Below are positions 7,851 to 57,880 of a stretch of 64,000 nt of DNA, piece after piece (the first letter of the stretch is position 1; each line of letters opens with the position of its first letter). Where the stretch lies: the sequence record OP114733. One strand, 5' to 3'. The translations under genes were made by a program, and so were the position numbers. Source of the stretch: Escherichia phage vB_EcoM-pEB20. The notes beneath the pieces were generated by a model that saw only the letters and a list, made by a program, of their open reading frames with translations, did not search any database and was not told the origin of the DNA.

Positions 7851-8213
7851 ATGAAAGCATATCAAATTCTTGAAGGTACACATAAAGGCACTATTTATTT
7901 TGAAGATGGTACTCAAGCCCGGATTATTGTCTCTAAAACTTTTAAAGAAGACGCTATTGTAGACCCAGAAATTTTCTACGGTTTGCATGCCCGTGAAATT
8001 GAAATTGAACATCAACCTAAAGTTAAAATTGAAGGTGGTCAACATCTGAATGTTAACGTTCTGCGTCGTGAAACTCTAGAAGATGCAGTTAAGCATCCGG
8101 AAAAATATCCGCAGCTGACCATCCGTGTATCCGGTTATGCAGTTCGCTTTAACTCTCTGACTCCGGAACAGCAGCGCGACGTTATCGCTCGCACCTTTAC
8201 TGAGAGTCTATAA
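7851..8213 (+). CDS. autonomous glycyl-radical cofactor (GrcA/YfiD-like; T4 Y06I-type)
   Basis: C-terminal [29 protein letters not shown] glycyl radical motif, near identical to E. coli GrcA as recalled. Confidence 0.85.
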
Positions 8214-8969: not shown

Positions 8970-9428
8970 ATGACTATCAATTCAGACGTTTTTATCCGCC
9001 GTAATAAACTCCGTCGAATCTTTGAAACGGAGTTCCGCAAAATAAATGCCGGTATAAAAGATGCTGCAAAGTCTCTTGGACTACCAGGCTTTCATATCAA
9101 GTATTCTCAACATCTCTTAGATCGTGCCATCCAGAGAGAAATAGATGAGAATTACGTTTTTGAATTATTTCATAAAGTAAAAAATCACGTTAAAGAAGTT
9201 GCAGAATTTTTGTCAATGCCGGCACGTCCAGATGTTGATGAAGATTTTGTCGAAGGTGTCGAGTATCGTCCAGGCCGTTTAGAAATAACTGACGGAAATC
9301 TTTGGTTAGGACTTACAGTTTGTCGCGAAAATCCGGCATTCAAAATGAAGACTCTTCAATGCAGAATGGCTATTATTAACAGTAAACGACTACCAGGAAA
9401 AGCTTCTAAAGCAGTGATTAAAATCTAG
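8970..9428 (+). CDS. regB: RegB endoribonuclease (cleaves GGAG in early mRNAs)
   Basis: MTINSDVFIRRNKLRR..YSQHLLDRAIQREIDE..RLPGKASKAVIK resembles T4 RegB as recalled; 152 aa; synteny. Confidence 0.7.
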   Translation: MTINSDVFIRRNKLRRIFETEFRKINAGIKDAAKSLGLPGFHIKYSQHLLDRAIQREIDENYVFELFHKVKNHVKEVAEFLSMPARPDVDEDFVEGVEYRPGRLEITDGNLWLGLTVCRENPAFKMKTLQCRMAIINSKRLPGKASKAVIKI

Positions 9429-9436
9429 AGGTAAAC

Positions 9437-9979
9437 ATGAGAAAAGCACTACTCGCTGGTCTATTTGCTCTTTCATTATCAGCACATAGCTCCGAGCATA
9501 CTTTTAGTAATGTCCAACTCGATAACTTGAATTATGCTTATCAGTTTGGGGAACAGTTTTCTAAGGACGGAAAATTTAAAACGCATGAAAATATGCATAA
9601 GAAAGGACTTGGATACATAATGGCCGCAATACTATGGCAGGAATCATCCGCCGGTATTAATCTTAAAGATAAGAAAGGTCACCATGCGTATGGAATGTTC
9701 CAAAATTATCTACCAACAATGAGGGCAAGAATTAACCAGCTTGGTTATAATATGACTGATGCCCAAATTAAGAAAATGCTATCTAAGCGGTCTAATTCAG
9801 CCAGATGGGCTTATATCGAATTTTCTTATTGGTTAAATATACATAACGGGGATATAAGAAAAGCTATATCCTCATATAATGCGGGATGGAAGACAAGTGC
9901 TGGAAGTAAATATGCTTCTGAAGTCCTAGAAAAGGCTAATTACCTTAAATCAAATAAACTACTGGAAATAAAAGAATGA
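9437..9979 (+). CDS. secreted lytic-transglycosylase-like protein (SLT motif ES...AYGMFQ) with signal peptide
   Basis: N-terminal signal peptide MRKALLAGLFALSLSAHS; QESSAG..AYGMFQ matches SLT catalytic pattern. Confidence 0.6.
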   Translation: MRKALLAGLFALSLSAHSSEHTFSNVQLDNLNYAYQFGEQFSKDGKFKTHENMHKKGLGYIMAAILWQESSAGINLKDKKGHHAYGMFQNYLPTMRARINQLGYNMTDAQIKKMLSKRSNSARWAYIEFSYWLNIHNGDIRKAISSYNAGWKTSAGSKYASEVLEKANYLKSNKLLEIKE

Positions 9980-10323
9980 CCAAAATGTTGGCTTTAATAG
10001 TTGGCTTGGTTTCATTTAACGCTCTTGCTAATACTACATATACTGATGTAACGGAGTATACAAACAGAACGGCGTCTGATTATTGCGGTAAAAGTCAAGA
10101 GTGTAAAGTAGATTTTTCACAAAAATTGTTATATGCGTATAAAGACGGAGAAAAAGATGGGGCGTCTAGTAGGTTCAAGGCGTCTACCTTAATTAAAAGA
10201 TACTATAAAAAATGGCAAATATTAGAATGCTCGGTGGCGGAACCTAAAGATAAGGCAGCATGCAATTCTATGGTGGACCGTCTAGTTGACTCTTATAATA
10301 GAGGACTTGCAGCAAGTGATTAA
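9976..10323 (+). CDS. small secreted protein (signal peptide, 4 Cys)
   Basis: MTKMLALIVGLVSFNALA signal peptide; 115 aa. Confidence 0.55.
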   Translation: MTKMLALIVGLVSFNALANTTYTDVTEYTNRTASDYCGKSQECKVDFSQKLLYAYKDGEKDGASSRFKASTLIKRYYKKWQILECSVAEPKDKAACNSMVDRLVDSYNRGLAASD

Positions 10324-10783
10324 AAACTATATCAAGGGCGATATTGTCGCCCTGTTTTCTAAAGGTAATAATATTGCTCACGGGTGTAATTGTTTTCATA
10401 CAATGGGCGCCGGTGTAGCAGGCCAATTAGCAAAGGCTTATCCAAAAATTTTAGAAGCCGATAAACTTCAAACCGAATTCGGAGACGAGTCTAAACTCGG
10501 GACTTATTCGGTTTATGAAAAATATTTTAAGACCCATAAAGCTTATTGCTTTAATCTTTATACACAGTTTGAGCCGGGACCTAATTTTGAGTACTCTGCT
10601 TTAATGAATTGTATAATAGAATTAAATGAATTCGGAAAGAATAAGATAACAAAGCCTGTAATTTATATGCCAAGAATTGGTGCAGGTATTGGTGGTGGAA
10701 ACTGGGATGTCATCGAAGAGATTTTAGATACGTATTCCACTAAACTAGAAATTGTGATTGTTGATTGGGAACCGTTATTATGA
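10286..10783 (+). CDS. macro-domain protein (ADP-ribose binding/processing, Macro_2-like)
   Basis: AHGCNCFHTMGAGVAGQLAKAYP and PRIGAGIGGGNW motifs; start is non-ATG (TTG 10286 or GTG 10316). Confidence 0.65.
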   Translation: MTLIIEDLQQVIKNYIKGDIVALFSKGNNIAHGCNCFHTMGAGVAGQLAKAYPKILEADKLQTEFGDESKLGTYSVYEKYFKTHKAYCFNLYTQFEPGPNFEYSALMNCIIELNEFGKNKITKPVIYMPRIGAGIGGGNWDVIEEILDTYSTKLEIVIVDWEPLL

Positions 10784-11383: not shown

Positions 11384-11965
11384 ATGGCTAGTTTAATTTT
11401 TACCTATGCCGCTATGAACGCTGGTAAGTCTGCTTCATTACTTACTGCCGCACATAACTATAAAGAACGTGGCATGGGTGTATTAGTTCTTAAACCGGCT
11501 ATTGATACTCGCGATTCAAAAGGTGAAATAGTCTCTCGTATTGGTATTCGTCAGGATGCCAATATAATTACAAAAGACATGGATATCTTTGAATTCTATA
11601 AATGGGCTGCAGCACAAAAGGATATTCACTGTGTATTTGTTGACGAAGCTCAGTTCTTAACTACTGAAAAGGTGTATCAACTTAGTCGTATTGTTGACGT
11701 ATACAATGTGCCGGTAATGGCATATGGACTACGAACAGATTTTAAAGGTAATCTATTTGAAGGTTCTCAAGCATTAATGGCTATTGCCGATAAGCTTGTT
11801 GAACTTAAAGGTGTCTGTCATTGTGGTAAAAAGGCCACAATGGTAGCTAGAGTCACGGAAGACGGACTTCCAATTACAGATGGCAGTCAAATTGAAATTG
11901 GTGATACAGATAGATACGTGTCATTATGCCGGAAGCATTGGAACGATTTGACAGGGTTGTTATAA
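11384..11965 (+). CDS. tk: thymidine kinase
   Basis: MASLIFTYAAMNAGKSASLL P-loop; 193 aa as T4 Tk. Confidence 0.9.
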   Translation: MASLIFTYAAMNAGKSASLLTAAHNYKERGMGVLVLKPAIDTRDSKGEIVSRIGIRQDANIITKDMDIFEFYKWAAAQKDIHCVFVDEAQFLTTEKVYQLSRIVDVYNVPVMAYGLRTDFKGNLFEGSQALMAIADKLVELKGVCHCGKKATMVARVTEDGLPITDGSQIEIGDTDRYVSLCRKHWNDLTGLL

Positions 11966-12217: not shown

Positions 12218-12520
12218 ATGGCCTTAAGAGCGATAGCTGTCATGGCGATGCTGGGGTTTTTTGCAGCAACAACTCCTATCGTTGGTACTGCATATATCGA
12301 CCCATATTTTGATAACTTTATGGAATCAGGGATTAAAAACGTATATACTTTGTTTGAAATTCAAAATGTCGAGAATTCTGAAAAATTCTATAAGTATATG
12401 GCAAAGCATTACAAAAATAGCCCCTGTGATGATGCATTTGAATGTCATGAACAAGGCATAAAAACTGCCAGACAATTTGCTGAGTTCATGAAAATAAAAT
12501 TAGAGCCTACATCTATCTAA
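12218..12520 (+). CDS. rI: lysis-inhibition protein RI (antiholin)
   Basis: MALRAIAVMAMLGFF..DPYFDNFMESGIKNVY resembles T4 RI as recalled; signal-anchor; adjacent to tk. Confidence 0.75.
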   Translation: MALRAIAVMAMLGFFAATTPIVGTAYIDPYFDNFMESGIKNVYTLFEIQNVENSEKFYKYMAKHYKNSPCDDAFECHEQGIKTARQFAEFMKIKLEPTSI

Positions 12521-56632: not shown

Positions 56633-57214
56633 ATGACATGTCAATCTGAACTTCAAGAACGTGAATACCTAACAAATCTGATTGATAGCAAATTCACCCG
56701 CCAAGAACAAAACATTCTCTGGGCTTGCACCGATTCTAAGGAAGACCCGGATTTCCACTATGAATTAGACCATCTTGTTCGTAAGCATATGACTTCTACA
56801 GTACCAGTAGAACTCTACCGTGGTGTAACTCCAGAAGAAGTAGAACGTCTTTCACTTCTTTCTGTTGGATGCCATTGGTCTCCTGGACGAGTAACATCGT
56901 TCACAACTGATTTCAGTACAGCTCGTCAATTCTCCGGGAGATGGGAATACCAGACGTACACTATTCTTAGTCTCAGGAATGCTCCATTCATTTTTGATTA
57001 CTACCAAAACATGGTTAACATTGTACTCGCCGGAAAGAACCCTAAGCATGTTATGGAAGAAACGCGTGTTGATGTCCTAGATATGATTGAATCTGAACAA
57101 GAGTACATGGTCTCAGGTATCTCTAGATTTGAGATTGTGGAAATTGAAGACTTAGAATATGACCCTTTATCTCGATTATACAAAATCATTCATTTGAAAA
57201 TGTTGAATTTTTAG
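56633..57214 (+). CDS. mono-ADP-ribosyltransferase, ModA/ModB family (first paralog)
   Basis: R-S-E triad: LYRGV, FTTDFST, SEQEYMVSG; about 193 aa. Confidence 0.7.
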   Translation: MTCQSELQEREYLTNLIDSKFTRQEQNILWACTDSKEDPDFHYELDHLVRKHMTSTVPVELYRGVTPEEVERLSLLSVGCHWSPGRVTSFTTDFSTARQFSGRWEYQTYTILSLRNAPFIFDYYQNMVNIVLAGKNPKHVMEETRVDVLDMIESEQEYMVSGISRFEIVEIEDLEYDPLSRLYKIIHLKMLNF

Positions 57215-57271
57215 TGTACAAACTCTTCCGATGATGATACTATACCTTTATCAACCACAGGAGAAACCTAA

Positions 57272-57880
57272 ATGTTTATGCCGTATAACGAGTGTGAAAT
57301 TGAAGAAATGGTTCGTCGTGCTCAAAACCCCGAATATCAAGATGTATTGCAGTACGAAATTGATAGTCAATTCAGCGACATTGAACAAAGTGTACTGTGG
57401 CAGTGTATGGAAAACAAGCCAGACTGTATTCAACAGGAGTTAAGTTCAATCGTTCGTAGAAATTGGACGTCTTCTGTTCCTGAGACAATGTATCGTGGAA
57501 TCTCTAAGAAAACTATGGCCGCACTCGATGATAAAGGCGTTGGTAGTATTATTAAATTTGACAGAGTAATGAGCTTCAGCCCAGTGTTCGGTGTAGCACG
57601 TAACTTTGCTTCGTATAATTTTTACGGAACATTTAATATGTTCTGCATCAAAGATGCACCATTTGCTTTCAACTTCCGTGAACATATGCTTAACATGATT
57701 CTGGCTGCGCCATCTTGTGAGTTCAATGGAGCTTTCCCTGAAGCGACAAGACGGTCTAATGCTAGACTTATATCCGACGAATGTGAATTTATGCTCCCTA
57801 TAGGGACTACACTGCGTGTAGATTCTATTATTCAAGATGGACATTATACAATCTGGAATCTGTCTATTGTCAGTTACTGA
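57272..57880 (+). CDS. mono-ADP-ribosyltransferase, ModA/ModB family (second paralog)
   Basis: MYRGI, SFSPVFG, DECEFMLP; about 202 aa. Confidence 0.7.
   Translation: MFMPYNECEIEEMVRRAQNPEYQDVLQYEIDSQFSDIEQSVLWQCMENKPDCIQQELSSIVRRNWTSSVPETMYRGISKKTMAALDDKGVGSIIKFDRVMSFSPVFGVARNFASYNFYGTFNMFCIKDAPFAFNFREHMLNMILAAPSCEFNGAFPEATRRSNARLISDECEFMLPIGTTLRVDSIIQDGHYTIWNLSIVSY

What the first reader, a model, noticed from the sequence alone, without database searches (positions are those of the whole stretch)
9437..10783. Cluster of a secreted SLT-like transglycosylase, a small secreted Cys protein and a macro-domain protein
The first two proteins carry signal peptides and would act in the periplasm (cell-wall remodelling or superinfection control). 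The macro-domain protein (HGCNC...MGAGVA; GAGIGGGNW) predicts ADP-ribose binding or removal. That fits a phage that also encodes two ADP-ribosyltransferases (56633-57880), or it could counter host ADP-ribosylating defences. Its start codon is non-ATG.
Basis: partly seen in the sequence, partly recalled or inferred. Interest (0 to 1): 0.55.

Follow-up and report, generated by a model that had tools for sequence, protein, structure and literature searches.

The report
T4 vs.1, vs and tk.4 orthologues
These are three well-known neighbouring early genes of a T4-like phage: an exported cell-wall-cutting enzyme (vs.1), a small exported four-cysteine protein (vs), and a macrodomain enzyme (tk.4/adfM) whose T4 counterpart was recently shown to protect the phage from the DNA-ADP-ribosylating defence DarTG2, so the finding is correct but mostly already known.

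Summary
Window 9437-10783 carries three consecutive, start/stop-overlapping + strand genes of a Mosigvirus (T4/RB69-like) phage, about 99% identical in DNA to deposited genomes. They are orthologues of T4 vs.1 (83% aa), vs (67%) and tk.4 (84%).

- **Vs.1** has a conserved Sec-type signal peptide, the three lytic-transglycosylase motifs (E69-S, GMFQ, SYNAG) and a predicted GH23/lysozyme-like fold.
- **The "small secreted Cys protein"** is Vs, annotated everywhere as "valyl-tRNA synthetase modifier".
- **The macrodomain protein** starts at GTG 10316, not TTG 10286. It passes Pfam Macro. It is a stand-alone, Gln-type macrodomain of the TARG1/DarG class: Q84 sits where DarG has K80, as in SCO6735, which cleaves ADP-ribosyl-thymidine.

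T4 tk.4 was named adfM in a 2025 preprint because deleting it sensitises T4 to DarTG2. The suggested link to the phage's own ModA/ModB has no support.

One loose end is worth noting. Vs keeps a signal peptide and four invariant cysteines, and it is translationally coupled to vs.1 in 8 of 9 lineages examined. That suggests a periplasmic partner of Vs.1, which does not fit its textbook cytoplasmic role.

The parts
9437..9979 (+). vs.1 orthologue: exported SLT-like (GH23-type) lytic transglycosylase, 180 aa. Catalytic-motif Glu69 is the codon at 9641-9643.
   Evidence: 83% identical to T4 Vs.1. phrog_600, E 3.7e-67. Pfam SLT 18.8 bits against a cut-off of 21.3; 31 of 35 family members hit SLT, best E 1.3e-7. 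Invariant E69, S71, G86, Q89, N90, Y147, N148 and G150. AF2 pLDDT 88.6. Foldseek top hits are GH23 chitinase, MltD, Slt, Slt70 and the phi6 lysin.
9437..9490 (+). Predicted Sec/SPase I signal peptide of Vs.1 (residues 1-18, cleavage after AHS).
   Evidence: Heuristic n/h/c analysis; the feature is present in all 35 homologues. pLDDT is about 56-61 over residues 1-20.
9976..10323 (+). vs orthologue ('valyl-tRNA synthetase modifier', PF26829): 115 aa with a signal-peptide-like N-terminus, four invariant Cys (37, 43, 85, 96) and a predicted four-helix fold.
   Evidence: phrog_1256, E 1.8e-35. 67% identical to T4 Vs. Homologues carry PF26829. AF2 pLDDT 84.5 with helices 15-37, 41-64, 69-85 and 90-114. 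No fold match outside its own family.
9976..10029 (+). Predicted signal peptide of Vs (residues 1-18, cleavage after ALA). The mature protein would be about 11 kDa.
   Evidence: pLDDT is below 50 for residues 1-15.
9976..9979 (+). ATGA overlap: vs start codon with vs.1 stop codon (translational coupling).
   Evidence: Sequence. The same kind of junction occurs in 7 other lineages.
10316..10783 (+). tk.4/adfM orthologue: stand-alone macrodomain, 155 aa, GTG start. N25 is the codon at 10388-10390 and Q84 the codon at 10565-10567.
   Evidence: 84% identical to T4 Tk.4. Pfam Macro 28.1 bits against 22. PDB sequence hits: BT1257 6.5e-11, Poa1p 1e-8, SCO6735 7e-5, DarG 9e-4, TARG1 1e-3. NCBIfam and PADLOC DarG models match over the macro part only. 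Q84 is 100% conserved in 117 family members and aligns with SCO6735 Q85, DarG K80 and TARG1 K84.
10316..10323 (+). GTGATTAA: tk.4 start overlapping the vs stop. The Shine-Dalgarno sequence AGAGGA lies at 10300-10305.
10335..10353 (+). GC-rich hairpin followed by a U-run, inside codons 7-13 of tk.4. The predicted outer helix pairs the tk.4 Shine-Dalgarno sequence with the U-run.
   Evidence: Terminator-like site. RNA fold -19.1 kcal/mol, z = -2.9. The stem sequence is also present in T4. Function untested.
10780..10783 (+). ATGA overlap between the tk.4 stop and the start of the next gene (tk.3-like, DUF7202).

Best explanation
The region is the vs.1 - vs - tk.4 segment of the early-gene block between regB and tk of a T4-like (Mosigvirus) phage. 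The three genes are tightly packed and translationally coupled, but they do at least two unrelated jobs.

(1) Vs.1 is made early and exported by the Sec pathway, and its signal peptide is removed. It then acts in the periplasm as a small family-1-type lytic transglycosylase, with Glu69 as the acid catalyst. Export and activity are inferred.

(2) Vs is a small protein annotated as the factor that binds host valyl-tRNA synthetase. Its sequence, however, predicts an exported, disulfide-bonded four-helix protein.

(3) Tk.4 is the orthologue of T4 AdfM, a cytoplasmic stand-alone macrodomain. It most likely removes the ADP-ribose that the host toxin DarT2 places on thymidines of single-stranded phage DNA, so replication can continue in cells carrying DarTG2.
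- Shown for T4: deleting tk.4 sensitises the phage to DarTG2.
- Inferred here: the chemistry. Tk.4 has Gln84 where DarG and TARG1 have the catalytic Lys. It therefore probably uses the water-mediated, Gln-positioned mechanism proposed for SCO6735, which carries the same Gln and does cleave ADP-ribosyl-thymidine.
For: Identity and synteny:
- The order regB, vs.1, vs, tk.4, tk.3-like, tk.2-like, tk is as in T4 and JK36/SA79RD.
- Amino-acid identity to T4 is 83% (Vs.1), 67% (Vs) and 84% (Tk.4).

Vs.1:
- The signal peptide is conserved in all 35 homologues.
- The ES, GMFQ and YNAG motifs are invariant.
- 31 of 35 members hit Pfam SLT.
- The model is confident (pLDDT 88.6) and its best PDB matches are almost all GH23 enzymes, at probability about 1.0 and TM about 0.5.
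- The SLT similarity was already noted in PMC1524935.

Tk.4:
- Pfam Macro is above its cut-off, and several solved macrodomains are hit.
- DarG models match only over their macro part.
- T4 tk.4 = adfM, and a clean knockout becomes sensitive to DarTG2.
- Q84 is invariant in 117 relatives and aligns with SCO6735 Q85; H22, C24 and N25 align with SCO6735 H24, C26 and N27.
- SCO6735 cleaves DarT-made ADP-ribosyl-thymidine, and Q85A abolishes this activity (PMC9411070; PMC9967889).
Against: - No biochemistry exists for Tk.4 of any T4-like phage. The preprint's mechanism is itself an inference.
- Tk.4 lacks the catalytic Lys of DarG and of PhiKZ AdfM. It also lacks the longer mobile loop of SCO6735, so its activity on DNA is not guaranteed.
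- Catalytically dead SCO6735 still inhibits DarT by binding, so hydrolysis need not be the whole story.
- For Vs.1, this copy falls below Pfam's SLT cut-off, a family profile finds no solved structure at E <= 0.01, and Foldseek E-values are weak at 2e-2.
- The signal peptides were judged by a simple heuristic, not a trained predictor.
- The anti-DarTG2 phenotype was shown for T4, not for this phage.
Confidence: 0.75

Rival explanations
1. Vs is not, or not only, a cytoplasmic valyl-tRNA synthetase modifier. It is exported and forms two disulfides. It then works in the periplasm with Vs.1, for example as a regulator or inhibitor that keeps an early-made lytic transglycosylase from damaging the wall prematurely.
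For: - The signal-peptide-like N-terminus and four invariant Cys (C-x5-C ... C-x7-10-C) are kept in 8 lineages, at down to about 20% identity.
- AF2 leaves residues 1-15 unstructured and folds the rest into a confident four-helix unit with the Cys pairs at helix ends.
- In 8 of 9 lineages examined, vs lies immediately after vs.1 with overlapping or abutting stop and start, while the genes on either side vary.
- N-terminally His-tagged T4 Vs was insoluble in E. coli (PMC8076793).
Against: - Classical genetics and biochemistry (Marchin and co-workers; cited, primary papers not held) tie the vs locus to modification of the cytoplasmic enzyme ValRS.
- A T4 vs deletion has a plaque defect specifically in minimal medium, which fits a translation-related role at least as well.
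- Aeromonas phage 31 has vs.1 without vs.
- The four Cys could bind a metal instead of forming disulfides.
Confidence: 0.3
2. Tk.4 is a small-molecule ADP-ribose-derivative hydrolase (an ADP-ribose-1''-phosphate phosphatase like yeast Poa1p, or an O-acetyl-ADP-ribose deacetylase), as its database labels 'phosphatase' and 'A1pp' suggest, rather than a DNA de-ADP-ribosylase.
For: - PHROG 335 carries the label 'phosphatase'.
- PDB hits to Poa1p reach E 1e-8.
- Source names include 'O-acetyl-ADP-ribose deacetylase' and 'A1pp phosphatase'.
- Aravind and colleagues argue that many phage macrodomains may prefer soluble ADP-ribose derivatives (PMC9503650).
Against: - The Poa1p match covers only residues 4-95.
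- The labels are homology transfers, not tested functions.
- The only phenotype known for the T4 orthologue is DarTG2 sensitivity.
- The active-site signature matches SCO6735, which acts on DNA and protein.
- The two activities are not mutually exclusive.
Confidence: 0.12
3. Tk.4 protects against DarTG2 mainly by binding and blocking DarT2 or ADP-ribosylated DNA, without needing catalysis.
For: - Tk.4 lacks the catalytic Lys of DarG and TARG1.
- Catalytically dead SCO6735 (Q85A), DarG (K80A) and TARG1 (K84A) all still inhibit DarT, with SCO6735 the strongest.
Against: - The ADP-ribose-binding and catalytic-site residues N25, N80 and Q84 and the Gly loops are 97-100% conserved across 117 relatives, as expected for an enzyme.
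- Tk.4 has no counterpart of DarG's C-terminal DarT-binding domain.
Confidence: 0.1
4. The macrodomain reverses or tunes ADP-ribosylation made by the phage's own Alt/ModA/ModB enzymes.
For: ModA/ModB-like genes are present at 56633-57880, and macrodomains and ARTs often co-occur in phages.
Against: - Alt, ModA and ModB modify arginine. Macrodomains cleave ester-, phosphate- or thymidine-linked ADP-ribose, not the arginine N-glycosidic bond (established knowledge; not tested here).
- tk.4 is not adjacent to the mod genes.
- T4 is still strongly blocked by the mRNA ADP-ribosyltransferase system CmdTAC, so Tk.4 is not a general eraser.
Confidence: 0.04
5. The three genes form one functional module in which the periplasmic and ADP-ribose functions are linked.
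For: Adjacency with overlapping stops and starts in the window, T4 and several relatives.
Against: - tk.4 is found without vs or vs.1 beside it in Aeromonas phage 65 and Acinetobacter phage Meroveus.
- In L009, L011, L012, L013 and ZZ1 no Macro hit is on record for the gene after vs.
- The predicted compartments differ.
Confidence: 0.03

Closest known systems
T4 Tk.4 = AdfM (anti-DarT factor, macrodomain; Humolli et al., bioRxiv 10.1101/2025.11.20.689424)
   Same: 84% identical over 155 aa. Same position after vs and before tk.3, same start position, and the same invariant residues.
   Different: GTG instead of ATG start, and an 8-nt rather than a 4-nt overlap with vs. The anti-DarTG2 phenotype has been shown only for T4.
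SCO6735 of Streptomyces coelicolor (PDB 5E3B) and BT1257 (2FG1/2AFC): Gln-type macrodomains of the ALC1/TARG1-like class
   Same: Gln at the position of the DarG/TARG1 catalytic Lys, an H-x-C-N motif and a PRIGxGxxGGxW loop. SCO6735 cleaves ADP-ribosyl-thymidine and Q85A kills that activity.
   Different: Only distant sequence similarity (E 7e-5 and 6.5e-11). Tk.4 has the short loop after the Gln, like TARG1 and DarG, not the five-residue-longer mobile loop of SCO6735. SCO6735 is a cellular protein, not a phage counter-defence.
DarG antitoxin of DarTG2 (PDB 5M31/5M3E, 5M3I)
   Same: Macrodomain of the same class, with a conserved Asn (Tk.4 N25 = DarG N22). DarG models in NCBIfam and PADLOC hit Tk.4 at E about 1e-8.
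   Different: Tk.4 has Gln in place of K80, no C-terminal DarT-binding domain, no adjacent darT, and scores 31.9 bits against an equivalog cut-off of 250.
PhiKZ gp104 'AdfM' (Cell Rep 2026, PMC13309987)
   Same: A phage stand-alone macrodomain that counters DarTG2. Hydrolysis of ADP-ribosyl-DNA was shown in vitro.
   Different: A different lineage. gp104 is DarG-like (E 1e-24 to Mtb DarG) and keeps the Lys (K78). BLASTP against Tk.4 aligns only 23 residues. The shared name hides two independent acquisitions.
Family-1 lytic transglycosylases / GH23 (Slt70, Slt, MltD, phi6 P5 lysin, Ralstonia GH23 chitinase)
   Same: ES, G-x-x-Q and YNxG motifs, and a lysozyme-like all-alpha fold.
   Different: Very divergent: sub-threshold Pfam score for this copy and no PDB hit by profile. 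It is a single 18.7-kDa catalytic domain with its own signal peptide, expressed from an early-gene block rather than a lysis cassette.
T4 Vs (valyl-tRNA synthetase modifier, PF26829)
   Same: 67% identical, same length, and same position after vs.1.
   Different: Nothing structural differs. The discrepancy lies between the family's predicted export features and its annotated cytoplasmic role.
T4 Spackle (periplasmic inhibitor of the gp5 tail lysozyme). This analogy is recalled from memory, not a tool result.
   Same: A small phage-encoded protein with a signal peptide, a helical fold and a disulfide, which acts on a phage muralytic enzyme in the periplasm. It is a precedent for the novel reading of Vs.
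   Different: No fold or sequence similarity was found; Spackle did not appear among the PDB matches of the Vs model.

Membership tests
Macro domain (Pfam PF01661) | Score above Pfam's gathering threshold over the whole domain | tested here: met
   28.1 bits against a cut-off of 22, profile positions 2-117 of 118.
Macro domain (Pfam PF01661) | Glycine-rich ADP-ribose/phosphate-binding loops | tested here: met
   MGAGVA (30-35) and PRIGAGIGGGNW (119-130). G33, G122 and G124 are 100% conserved in 117 relatives.
T4 AdfM/Tk.4 orthologous group | High identity and conserved genomic position | tested here: met
   84% identity; vs - tk.4 - tk.3 ... tk synteny.
T4 AdfM/Tk.4 orthologous group | Protects the phage from DarTG2 | not testable with these tools
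   Shown only for T4, by knockout.
DarG antitoxin (NCBIfam NF048014, equivalog) | Full-length score at or above the curated cut-off | tested here: not met
   31.9 bits against 250; only model positions 4-146 of 338 are matched.
DarG antitoxin (NCBIfam NF048014, equivalog) | Catalytic Lys (K80 in T. aquaticus DarG) | tested here: not met
   Gln84 aligns with K80 in both the MAFFT and the HMM alignment.
DarG antitoxin (NCBIfam NF048014, equivalog) | C-terminal DarT-binding domain and an adjacent darT gene | tested here: not met
   The protein is a 155-aa macrodomain only, and its neighbours are vs and a DUF7202 gene.
Gln-type ALC1/TARG1-like macrodomains (SCO6735 type) | Gln at the catalytic-Lys position plus the H-x-C-N motif | tested here: met
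   Q84 aligns with Q85, and H22/C24/N25 with H24/C26/N27. Q84 is invariant in the family.
Gln-type ALC1/TARG1-like macrodomains (SCO6735 type) | Extended mobile loop after the Gln (five residues longer than in DarG/TARG1) | tested here: not met
   The Tk.4 loop has TARG1/DarG length.
Gln-type ALC1/TARG1-like macrodomains (SCO6735 type) | Hydrolysis of thymidine-linked ADP-ribose on DNA | not testable with these tools
   Shown for SCO6735, not for Tk.4.
PhiKZ-type AdfM (gp104) | DarG-like sequence with the Lys retained | tested here: not met
   BLASTP aligns only 23 residues, E 6e-4; Gln versus Lys.
SLT / family-1 lytic transglycosylase (Pfam PF01464, GH23) | Pfam gathering score | tested here: inconclusive
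   This copy scores 18.8 bits against 21.3. 31 of 35 family members hit at E <= 0.01, best 1.3e-7, and several homologues carry precomputed PF01464.
SLT / family-1 lytic transglycosylase (Pfam PF01464, GH23) | Consensus motifs ES (catalytic Glu), GLMQ and AYNxG (motif definitions recalled from the literature) | tested here: met
   WQE69SS, YGMFQ89N and SY147N148AG150. All of these residues are invariant in 35 sequences.
SLT / family-1 lytic transglycosylase (Pfam PF01464, GH23) | Lysozyme-like (goose-type/GH23) fold | tested here: met
   AF2 pLDDT 88.6. The top 36 Foldseek PDB hits are almost all GH23 or lysozyme-like, at probability about 1.0 and TM 0.4-0.53, but with a best E-value of only 2e-2.
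SLT / family-1 lytic transglycosylase (Pfam PF01464, GH23) | Forms 1,6-anhydro-MurNAc products | not testable with these tools
   No assay is available.
Sec/SPase I signal peptide (Vs.1 and Vs) | Basic n-region, 10-15-residue uncharged hydrophobic h-region, small residues at -3 and -1 | tested here: met
   My own heuristic only. The layout is conserved in 35 of 35 Vs.1 and 8 of 8 Vs sequences. No trained predictor was available.
Vs / ValRS_modifier (PF26829, phrog_1256) | Sequence membership | tested here: met
   phrog_1256 at E 1.8e-35; homologues carry PF26829; 67% identical to T4 Vs.
Vs / ValRS_modifier (PF26829, phrog_1256) | Binds and modifies host valyl-tRNA synthetase | not testable with these tools
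   The classical papers are not held. The predicted export features sit awkwardly with this role.

The most novel reading that the evidence does not exclude
The protein annotated throughout T4-like genomes as 'valyl-tRNA synthetase modifier' (Vs) is in fact an exported, disulfide-bonded periplasmic protein. It functions together with the lytic transglycosylase Vs.1, to which its gene is translationally coupled in almost every lineage, for instance as a dedicated regulator or inhibitor. On this reading the ValRS label is either a mis-assignment of the classical vs locus to this ORF or a second, unexplained activity.
Probability: 0.25. Interest if true: 0.6.

Novelty: already known. Interest (0 to 1): 0.28.

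Why it matters
For the finding as stated, little is new. All three genes are named T4 genes. The SLT and macro similarities were published in 2003-2006, and the anti-DarTG2 role of tk.4 appeared in 2025. This copy is about 99% identical to deposited phage genomes.

Two points may be useful to specialists.

First, the two phage proteins now both called AdfM (T4 Tk.4 and PhiKZ gp104) are different macrodomain lineages with different catalytic residues, Gln versus Lys. Phages therefore acquired anti-DarT2 macrodomains at least twice, and the T4 type should be studied with SCO6735, not DarG, as the mechanistic template.

Second, Vs has the hallmarks of a secreted disulfide protein and is locked to vs.1 across distant T4-like phages. 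This gives a concrete, cheap experimental handle on two long-unexplained T4 genes. One of them (vs) has just been shown to matter in minimal medium.

Tried and rejected
- **TTG 10286 as the macro start.** Rejected. T4 has an in-frame TAG just before its ATG, which aligns with GTG 10316, and tblastn alignments to relatives more distant than about 90% begin at residue 11.
- **Sequence search of the PDB with Vs.1.** No hit with the single sequence at E <= 1 or with a 35-sequence profile at E <= 0.01.
- **Searches with Vs.** The PDB sequence search found nothing meaningful. Foldseek against the PDB returned only nonspecific helical proteins. Foldseek against BFVD returned only Vs orthologues. afdb50 was not available. 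A profile search of 1.84 billion representatives found only 7 relatives.
- **NCBIfam and PADLOC.** Nothing for Vs.1 or Vs.
- **Classical literature on vs/tau and the T4 genome review.** Not held in the library, so I could not check how the vs locus was assigned to this ORF.
- **"Tk.4 lacks the catalytic Lys, so it may be inactive."** Considered and rejected once the Gln turned out to match SCO6735 Q85, which is essential in an enzyme that does cleave ADP-ribosyl-thymidine.
- **HMMER's pairwise alignment of Tk.4 to 5E3B.** It placed the Gln region differently, at low posterior probability. MAFFT and the family-HMM alignment agree on Q84 = Q85, anchored by the conserved Asn four residues upstream.
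- **A SAR-type anchor for Vs.1.** Judged unlikely because the h-region has only about 13 residues and is followed by a good AHS cleavage site.
- **A tblastn of plasmids to fetch DarG.** It returned only stand-alone macro proteins.
Full report
**What is there.** The window is a T4-like phage. A 2.5-kb stretch around the finding matches 672 phage records. The best matches are 99% identical Mosigvirus genomes such as vB_EcoM_SA79RD and Shigella phage JK36. ORF listing and family scans give this + strand gene order:
- regB, 8970-9428 (Pfam REGB_T4, 6e-69)
- a 180-aa ORF, 9437-9979
- a 115-aa ORF, 9976-10323
- a macrodomain ORF ending at 10783
- two small conserved ORFs (DUF7202 and a phage zinc-binding domain)
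- thymidine kinase, 11384-11965

This is the T4 order regB - vs.1 - vs - tk.4 - tk.3 ... tk. Amino-acid identities to T4 are 83% for Vs.1, 67% for Vs and 84% for Tk.4. The genes are joined by overlapping stops and starts: ATGA at 9976-9979, GTGATTAA at 10316-10323 and ATGA at 10780-10783.

**Start of the macrodomain gene.** The mechanical ORF begins at TTG 10286, but the true start is GTG 10316. It aligns exactly with T4's ATG, and in T4 an in-frame TAG lies directly upstream, so no N-terminal extension is possible there. Relatives below about 90% identity align only from residue 11 of the long ORF. All annotated relatives start at this position. An AGAGGA Shine-Dalgarno sequence lies 10 nt upstream.

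**Vs.1.**
- *Pfam.* SLT scores 18.8 bits for this copy, below the 21.3 cut-off. However, 31 of 35 diverse homologues hit SLT at E <= 0.01, the best at 1.3e-7.
- *Motifs.* In an alignment of 35 homologues (down to 39% identity), the residues that define family-1 lytic transglycosylases are invariant: E69-S71 in WQESSAG, G86/Q89/N90 in YGMFQN, and Y147/N148/G150 in SYNAG.
- *Fold.* An AlphaFold2 model built on that alignment is confident (pLDDT 88.6, pTM 0.82). Its Foldseek matches in the PDB are almost exclusively GH23 or lysozyme-like enzymes: the Ralstonia GH23 chitinase, MltD, P. aeruginosa Slt, E. coli Slt70, LtgA, Cj0843 and the phi6 P5 lysin. Probabilities are near 1.0 and TM about 0.5, although E-values are weak at 2e-2 or worse. 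Sequence and profile searches of the PDB found nothing, so this is a distant member.
- *Export.* The N-terminus (MRK / ALLAGLFALSLS / AHS|SEH) has the n-h-c layout of a Sec signal peptide. This layout is retained in all 35 homologues even though the residues differ (my own heuristic, as no trained predictor was available).
- *Prior knowledge.* The SLT similarity of vs.1 was already reported (PMC1524935).

**Vs.**
- *Identity.* The "small secreted Cys protein" is the T4 vs product. It matches phrog_1256 'valyl tRNA synthetase modifier' at 1.8e-35, and its homologues carry Pfam PF26829 ValRS_modifier.
- *Sequence features.* It has a signal-peptide-like N-terminus (MTK / MLALIVGLVSF / NALA|NTT) and four cysteines (37, 43, 85, 96).
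- *Model.* An AF2 model (pLDDT 84.5) leaves residues 1-15 unstructured and folds the rest into four helices. One Cys pair brackets the first helix-helix turn and the other lies at the third.
- *Fold searches.* No similarity was found outside the family. A profile search of 1.84 billion representatives found only seven relatives.

**A conserved vs.1-vs pair.** I looked at the genes around divergent Vs.1 homologues.
- In Acinetobacter phage ZZ1 and in five further lineages (Vs.1 42-63% identical to the window copy), the ORF immediately after vs.1 is always a PF26829 protein. Its start overlaps or abuts the vs.1 stop (ATGA, TGATG, TAATG).
- The genes on either side vary: regB may or may not be upstream, and a macrodomain gene may or may not be downstream.
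- These Vs proteins are only 19-28% identical to the window's. All keep the hydrophobic N-terminus and the four Cys in a C-x5-C ... C-x7-10-C pattern.
- For ZZ1 the signal peptide appears only if the upstream ATG is used.
- Aeromonas phage 31 is the exception. It has vs.1 and tk.4 but no vs, and carries a lipoprotein-like ORF in between.

A conserved signal peptide plus invariant cysteine pairs is what one expects of a periplasmic, DsbA-oxidised protein. Tight coupling to an exported muralytic enzyme suggests a shared periplasmic function. That is hard to square with the textbook role of Vs as a factor binding cytoplasmic valyl-tRNA synthetase (as cited in PMC8076793). I could not read the primary papers.

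Two published observations bear on this. N-terminally His-tagged T4 Vs is insoluble in E. coli. A T4 vs deletion plaques poorly only in minimal medium, which fits a translation role at least as well. I therefore keep the periplasmic-partner idea as the most novel reading, not as the main conclusion.

**Tk.4.**
- *Family membership.* The protein passes Pfam Macro (28.1 bits against 22). By sequence it hits several solved macrodomains: BT1257 (6.5e-11), yeast Poa1p (1e-8, N-terminal half only), SCO6735 (7e-5), T. aquaticus DarG (9e-4) and human TARG1 (1e-3).
- *Relation to DarG.* NCBIfam's DarG equivalog and PADLOC's DarG model match at about 1e-8, but only over their macrodomain part and far below the cut-off (31.9 against 250 bits). 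Tk.4 therefore lacks DarG's C-terminal DarT-binding domain.
- *Distribution.* It is a stand-alone 155-aa macrodomain with relatives in 2799 phage records.
- *Published function.* A 2025 preprint (Humolli et al., HIDEN-SEQ) found tk.4 as the single T4 gene depleted on a DarTG2 host. It confirmed that a clean deletion sensitises T4 to DarTG2 and named the gene adfM. Enzymatic removal of ADP-ribose from DNA was proposed but not shown.

**Active site.** I aligned the window protein, T4 Tk.4 and 116 family members with TARG1 and with the DarG, PhiKZ gp104, BT1257 and SCO6735 sequences taken from PDB alignments. My recalled TARG1 sequence was verified against the PDB at 335 bits.
- Both MAFFT and a family-HMM alignment place Tk.4 Gln84 at the position of TARG1 K84, DarG K80 and PhiKZ K78. 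Gln84 is invariant in all 117 sequences.
- The same position is Gln in BT1257 and in SCO6735 (Q85).
- Tk.4 H22/C24/N25 align with SCO6735 H24/C26/N27.
- TARG1 D125 corresponds to Gly in Tk.4.

SCO6735 has been shown to cleave DarT-made ADP-ribosyl-thymidine, and Q85A abolishes its activity. A water-mediated mechanism with Gln positioning the distal ribose was proposed (PMC9411070; review PMC9967889). Tk.4's missing Lys is therefore not a sign of inactivity. Tk.4 belongs to the Gln-type branch of the class. It differs from SCO6735 in having the short loop after the Gln.

The PhiKZ protein also called AdfM, for which hydrolysis of ADP-ribosylated DNA was shown in vitro (PMC13309987), is a different, DarG-like lineage. 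It matches M. tuberculosis DarG at 1e-24. BLASTP aligns only 23 of its residues with Tk.4.

**Is it a functional cluster?** No. tk.4 lies away from vs and vs.1 in Aeromonas phage 65 and Acinetobacter phage Meroveus, and no Macro hit is on record for the gene after vs in several lineages. The predicted compartments also differ.

ModA/ModB-like genes do sit at 56633-57880. However, those enzymes modify arginine, a linkage that macrodomains are not known to cleave (established knowledge, not tested here). T4 also remains sensitive to the mRNA ADP-ribosyltransferase system CmdTAC, so Tk.4 is not a general eraser.

**Verdict.** The most pointed suggestion, to test against DarT, has already been borne out for the T4 orthologue. 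Everything in the finding corresponds to named, previously described T4 genes in a phage about 99% identical to deposited genomes, so it is already known and of low to moderate interest.

Two by-products are worth recording. The T4-type AdfM is a Gln-type macrodomain mechanistically akin to SCO6735, distinct from DarG and from PhiKZ AdfM. And Vs looks like an exported partner of Vs.1, which questions or complicates a 50-year-old annotation.

Noticed in passing
window 9437-10323; L002, L007, L009-L013: vs.1 and vs form a conserved, translationally coupled pair in 8 of 9 T4-like lineages examined. All the Vs proteins keep a signal-peptide-like N-terminus and four invariant Cys, which does not fit the annotated cytoplasmic role as ValRS modifier.
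   Followed up: partly
window 10299-10362: A GC-rich hairpin (10335-10353) followed by a U-run lies just inside tk.4. The predicted outer helix pairs the tk.4 Shine-Dalgarno sequence (AGAGGAC) with GUUUUCU. MFE is -19.1 kcal/mol, z = -2.9. The stem sequence is also present in T4. It could be an attenuator or a translational control element.
   Followed up: partly
L007:3025-3354 (Acinetobacter phage ZZ1): The called Vs homologue (98 aa) starts at an internal Met. The upstream in-frame ATG restores a full signal peptide (MKLINIIAVFCMIISMPVYA|QNT).
   Followed up: yes
L001:2035-2577 (Shigella phage JK36) and source names: Vs.1 orthologues are mislabelled 'endoribonuclease' or 'site-specific RNA endonuclease (RegB)' in some GenBank and UniRef entries. 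This is apparently annotation bleed from the neighbouring regB gene.
   Followed up: no
L006:3368-3808 (Aeromonas phage 31): This phage lacks vs. A 146-aa ORF with a lipoprotein-like N-terminus (MKKSIATLIAIGMYGC) lies between vs.1 and tk.4. It may be another envelope protein associated with vs.1.
   Followed up: no
window 7851-8213: A 120-aa protein carries a C-terminal glycyl-radical domain (Pfam Gly_radical, 2e-18). It is the T4 vs.6-type 'spare part', GrcA/YfiD-like protein, already noted in PMC1524935.
   Followed up: no
window 12218-12520: An rI-like antiholin ORF has a hydrophobic N-terminal segment. An antiholin gene (PF24205) recurs a few genes downstream of the vs.1-vs pair in several lineages (L007, L010, L011, L012).
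   Followed up: no
T4 Tk.4 (L002:1801-2268) and PhiKZ gp104 (L003:22518-23006): Two unrelated phage macrodomain lineages now share the name AdfM in the literature: Gln-type in T4 and Lys-type, DarG-like in PhiKZ. This is a likely source of confusion.
   Followed up: yes
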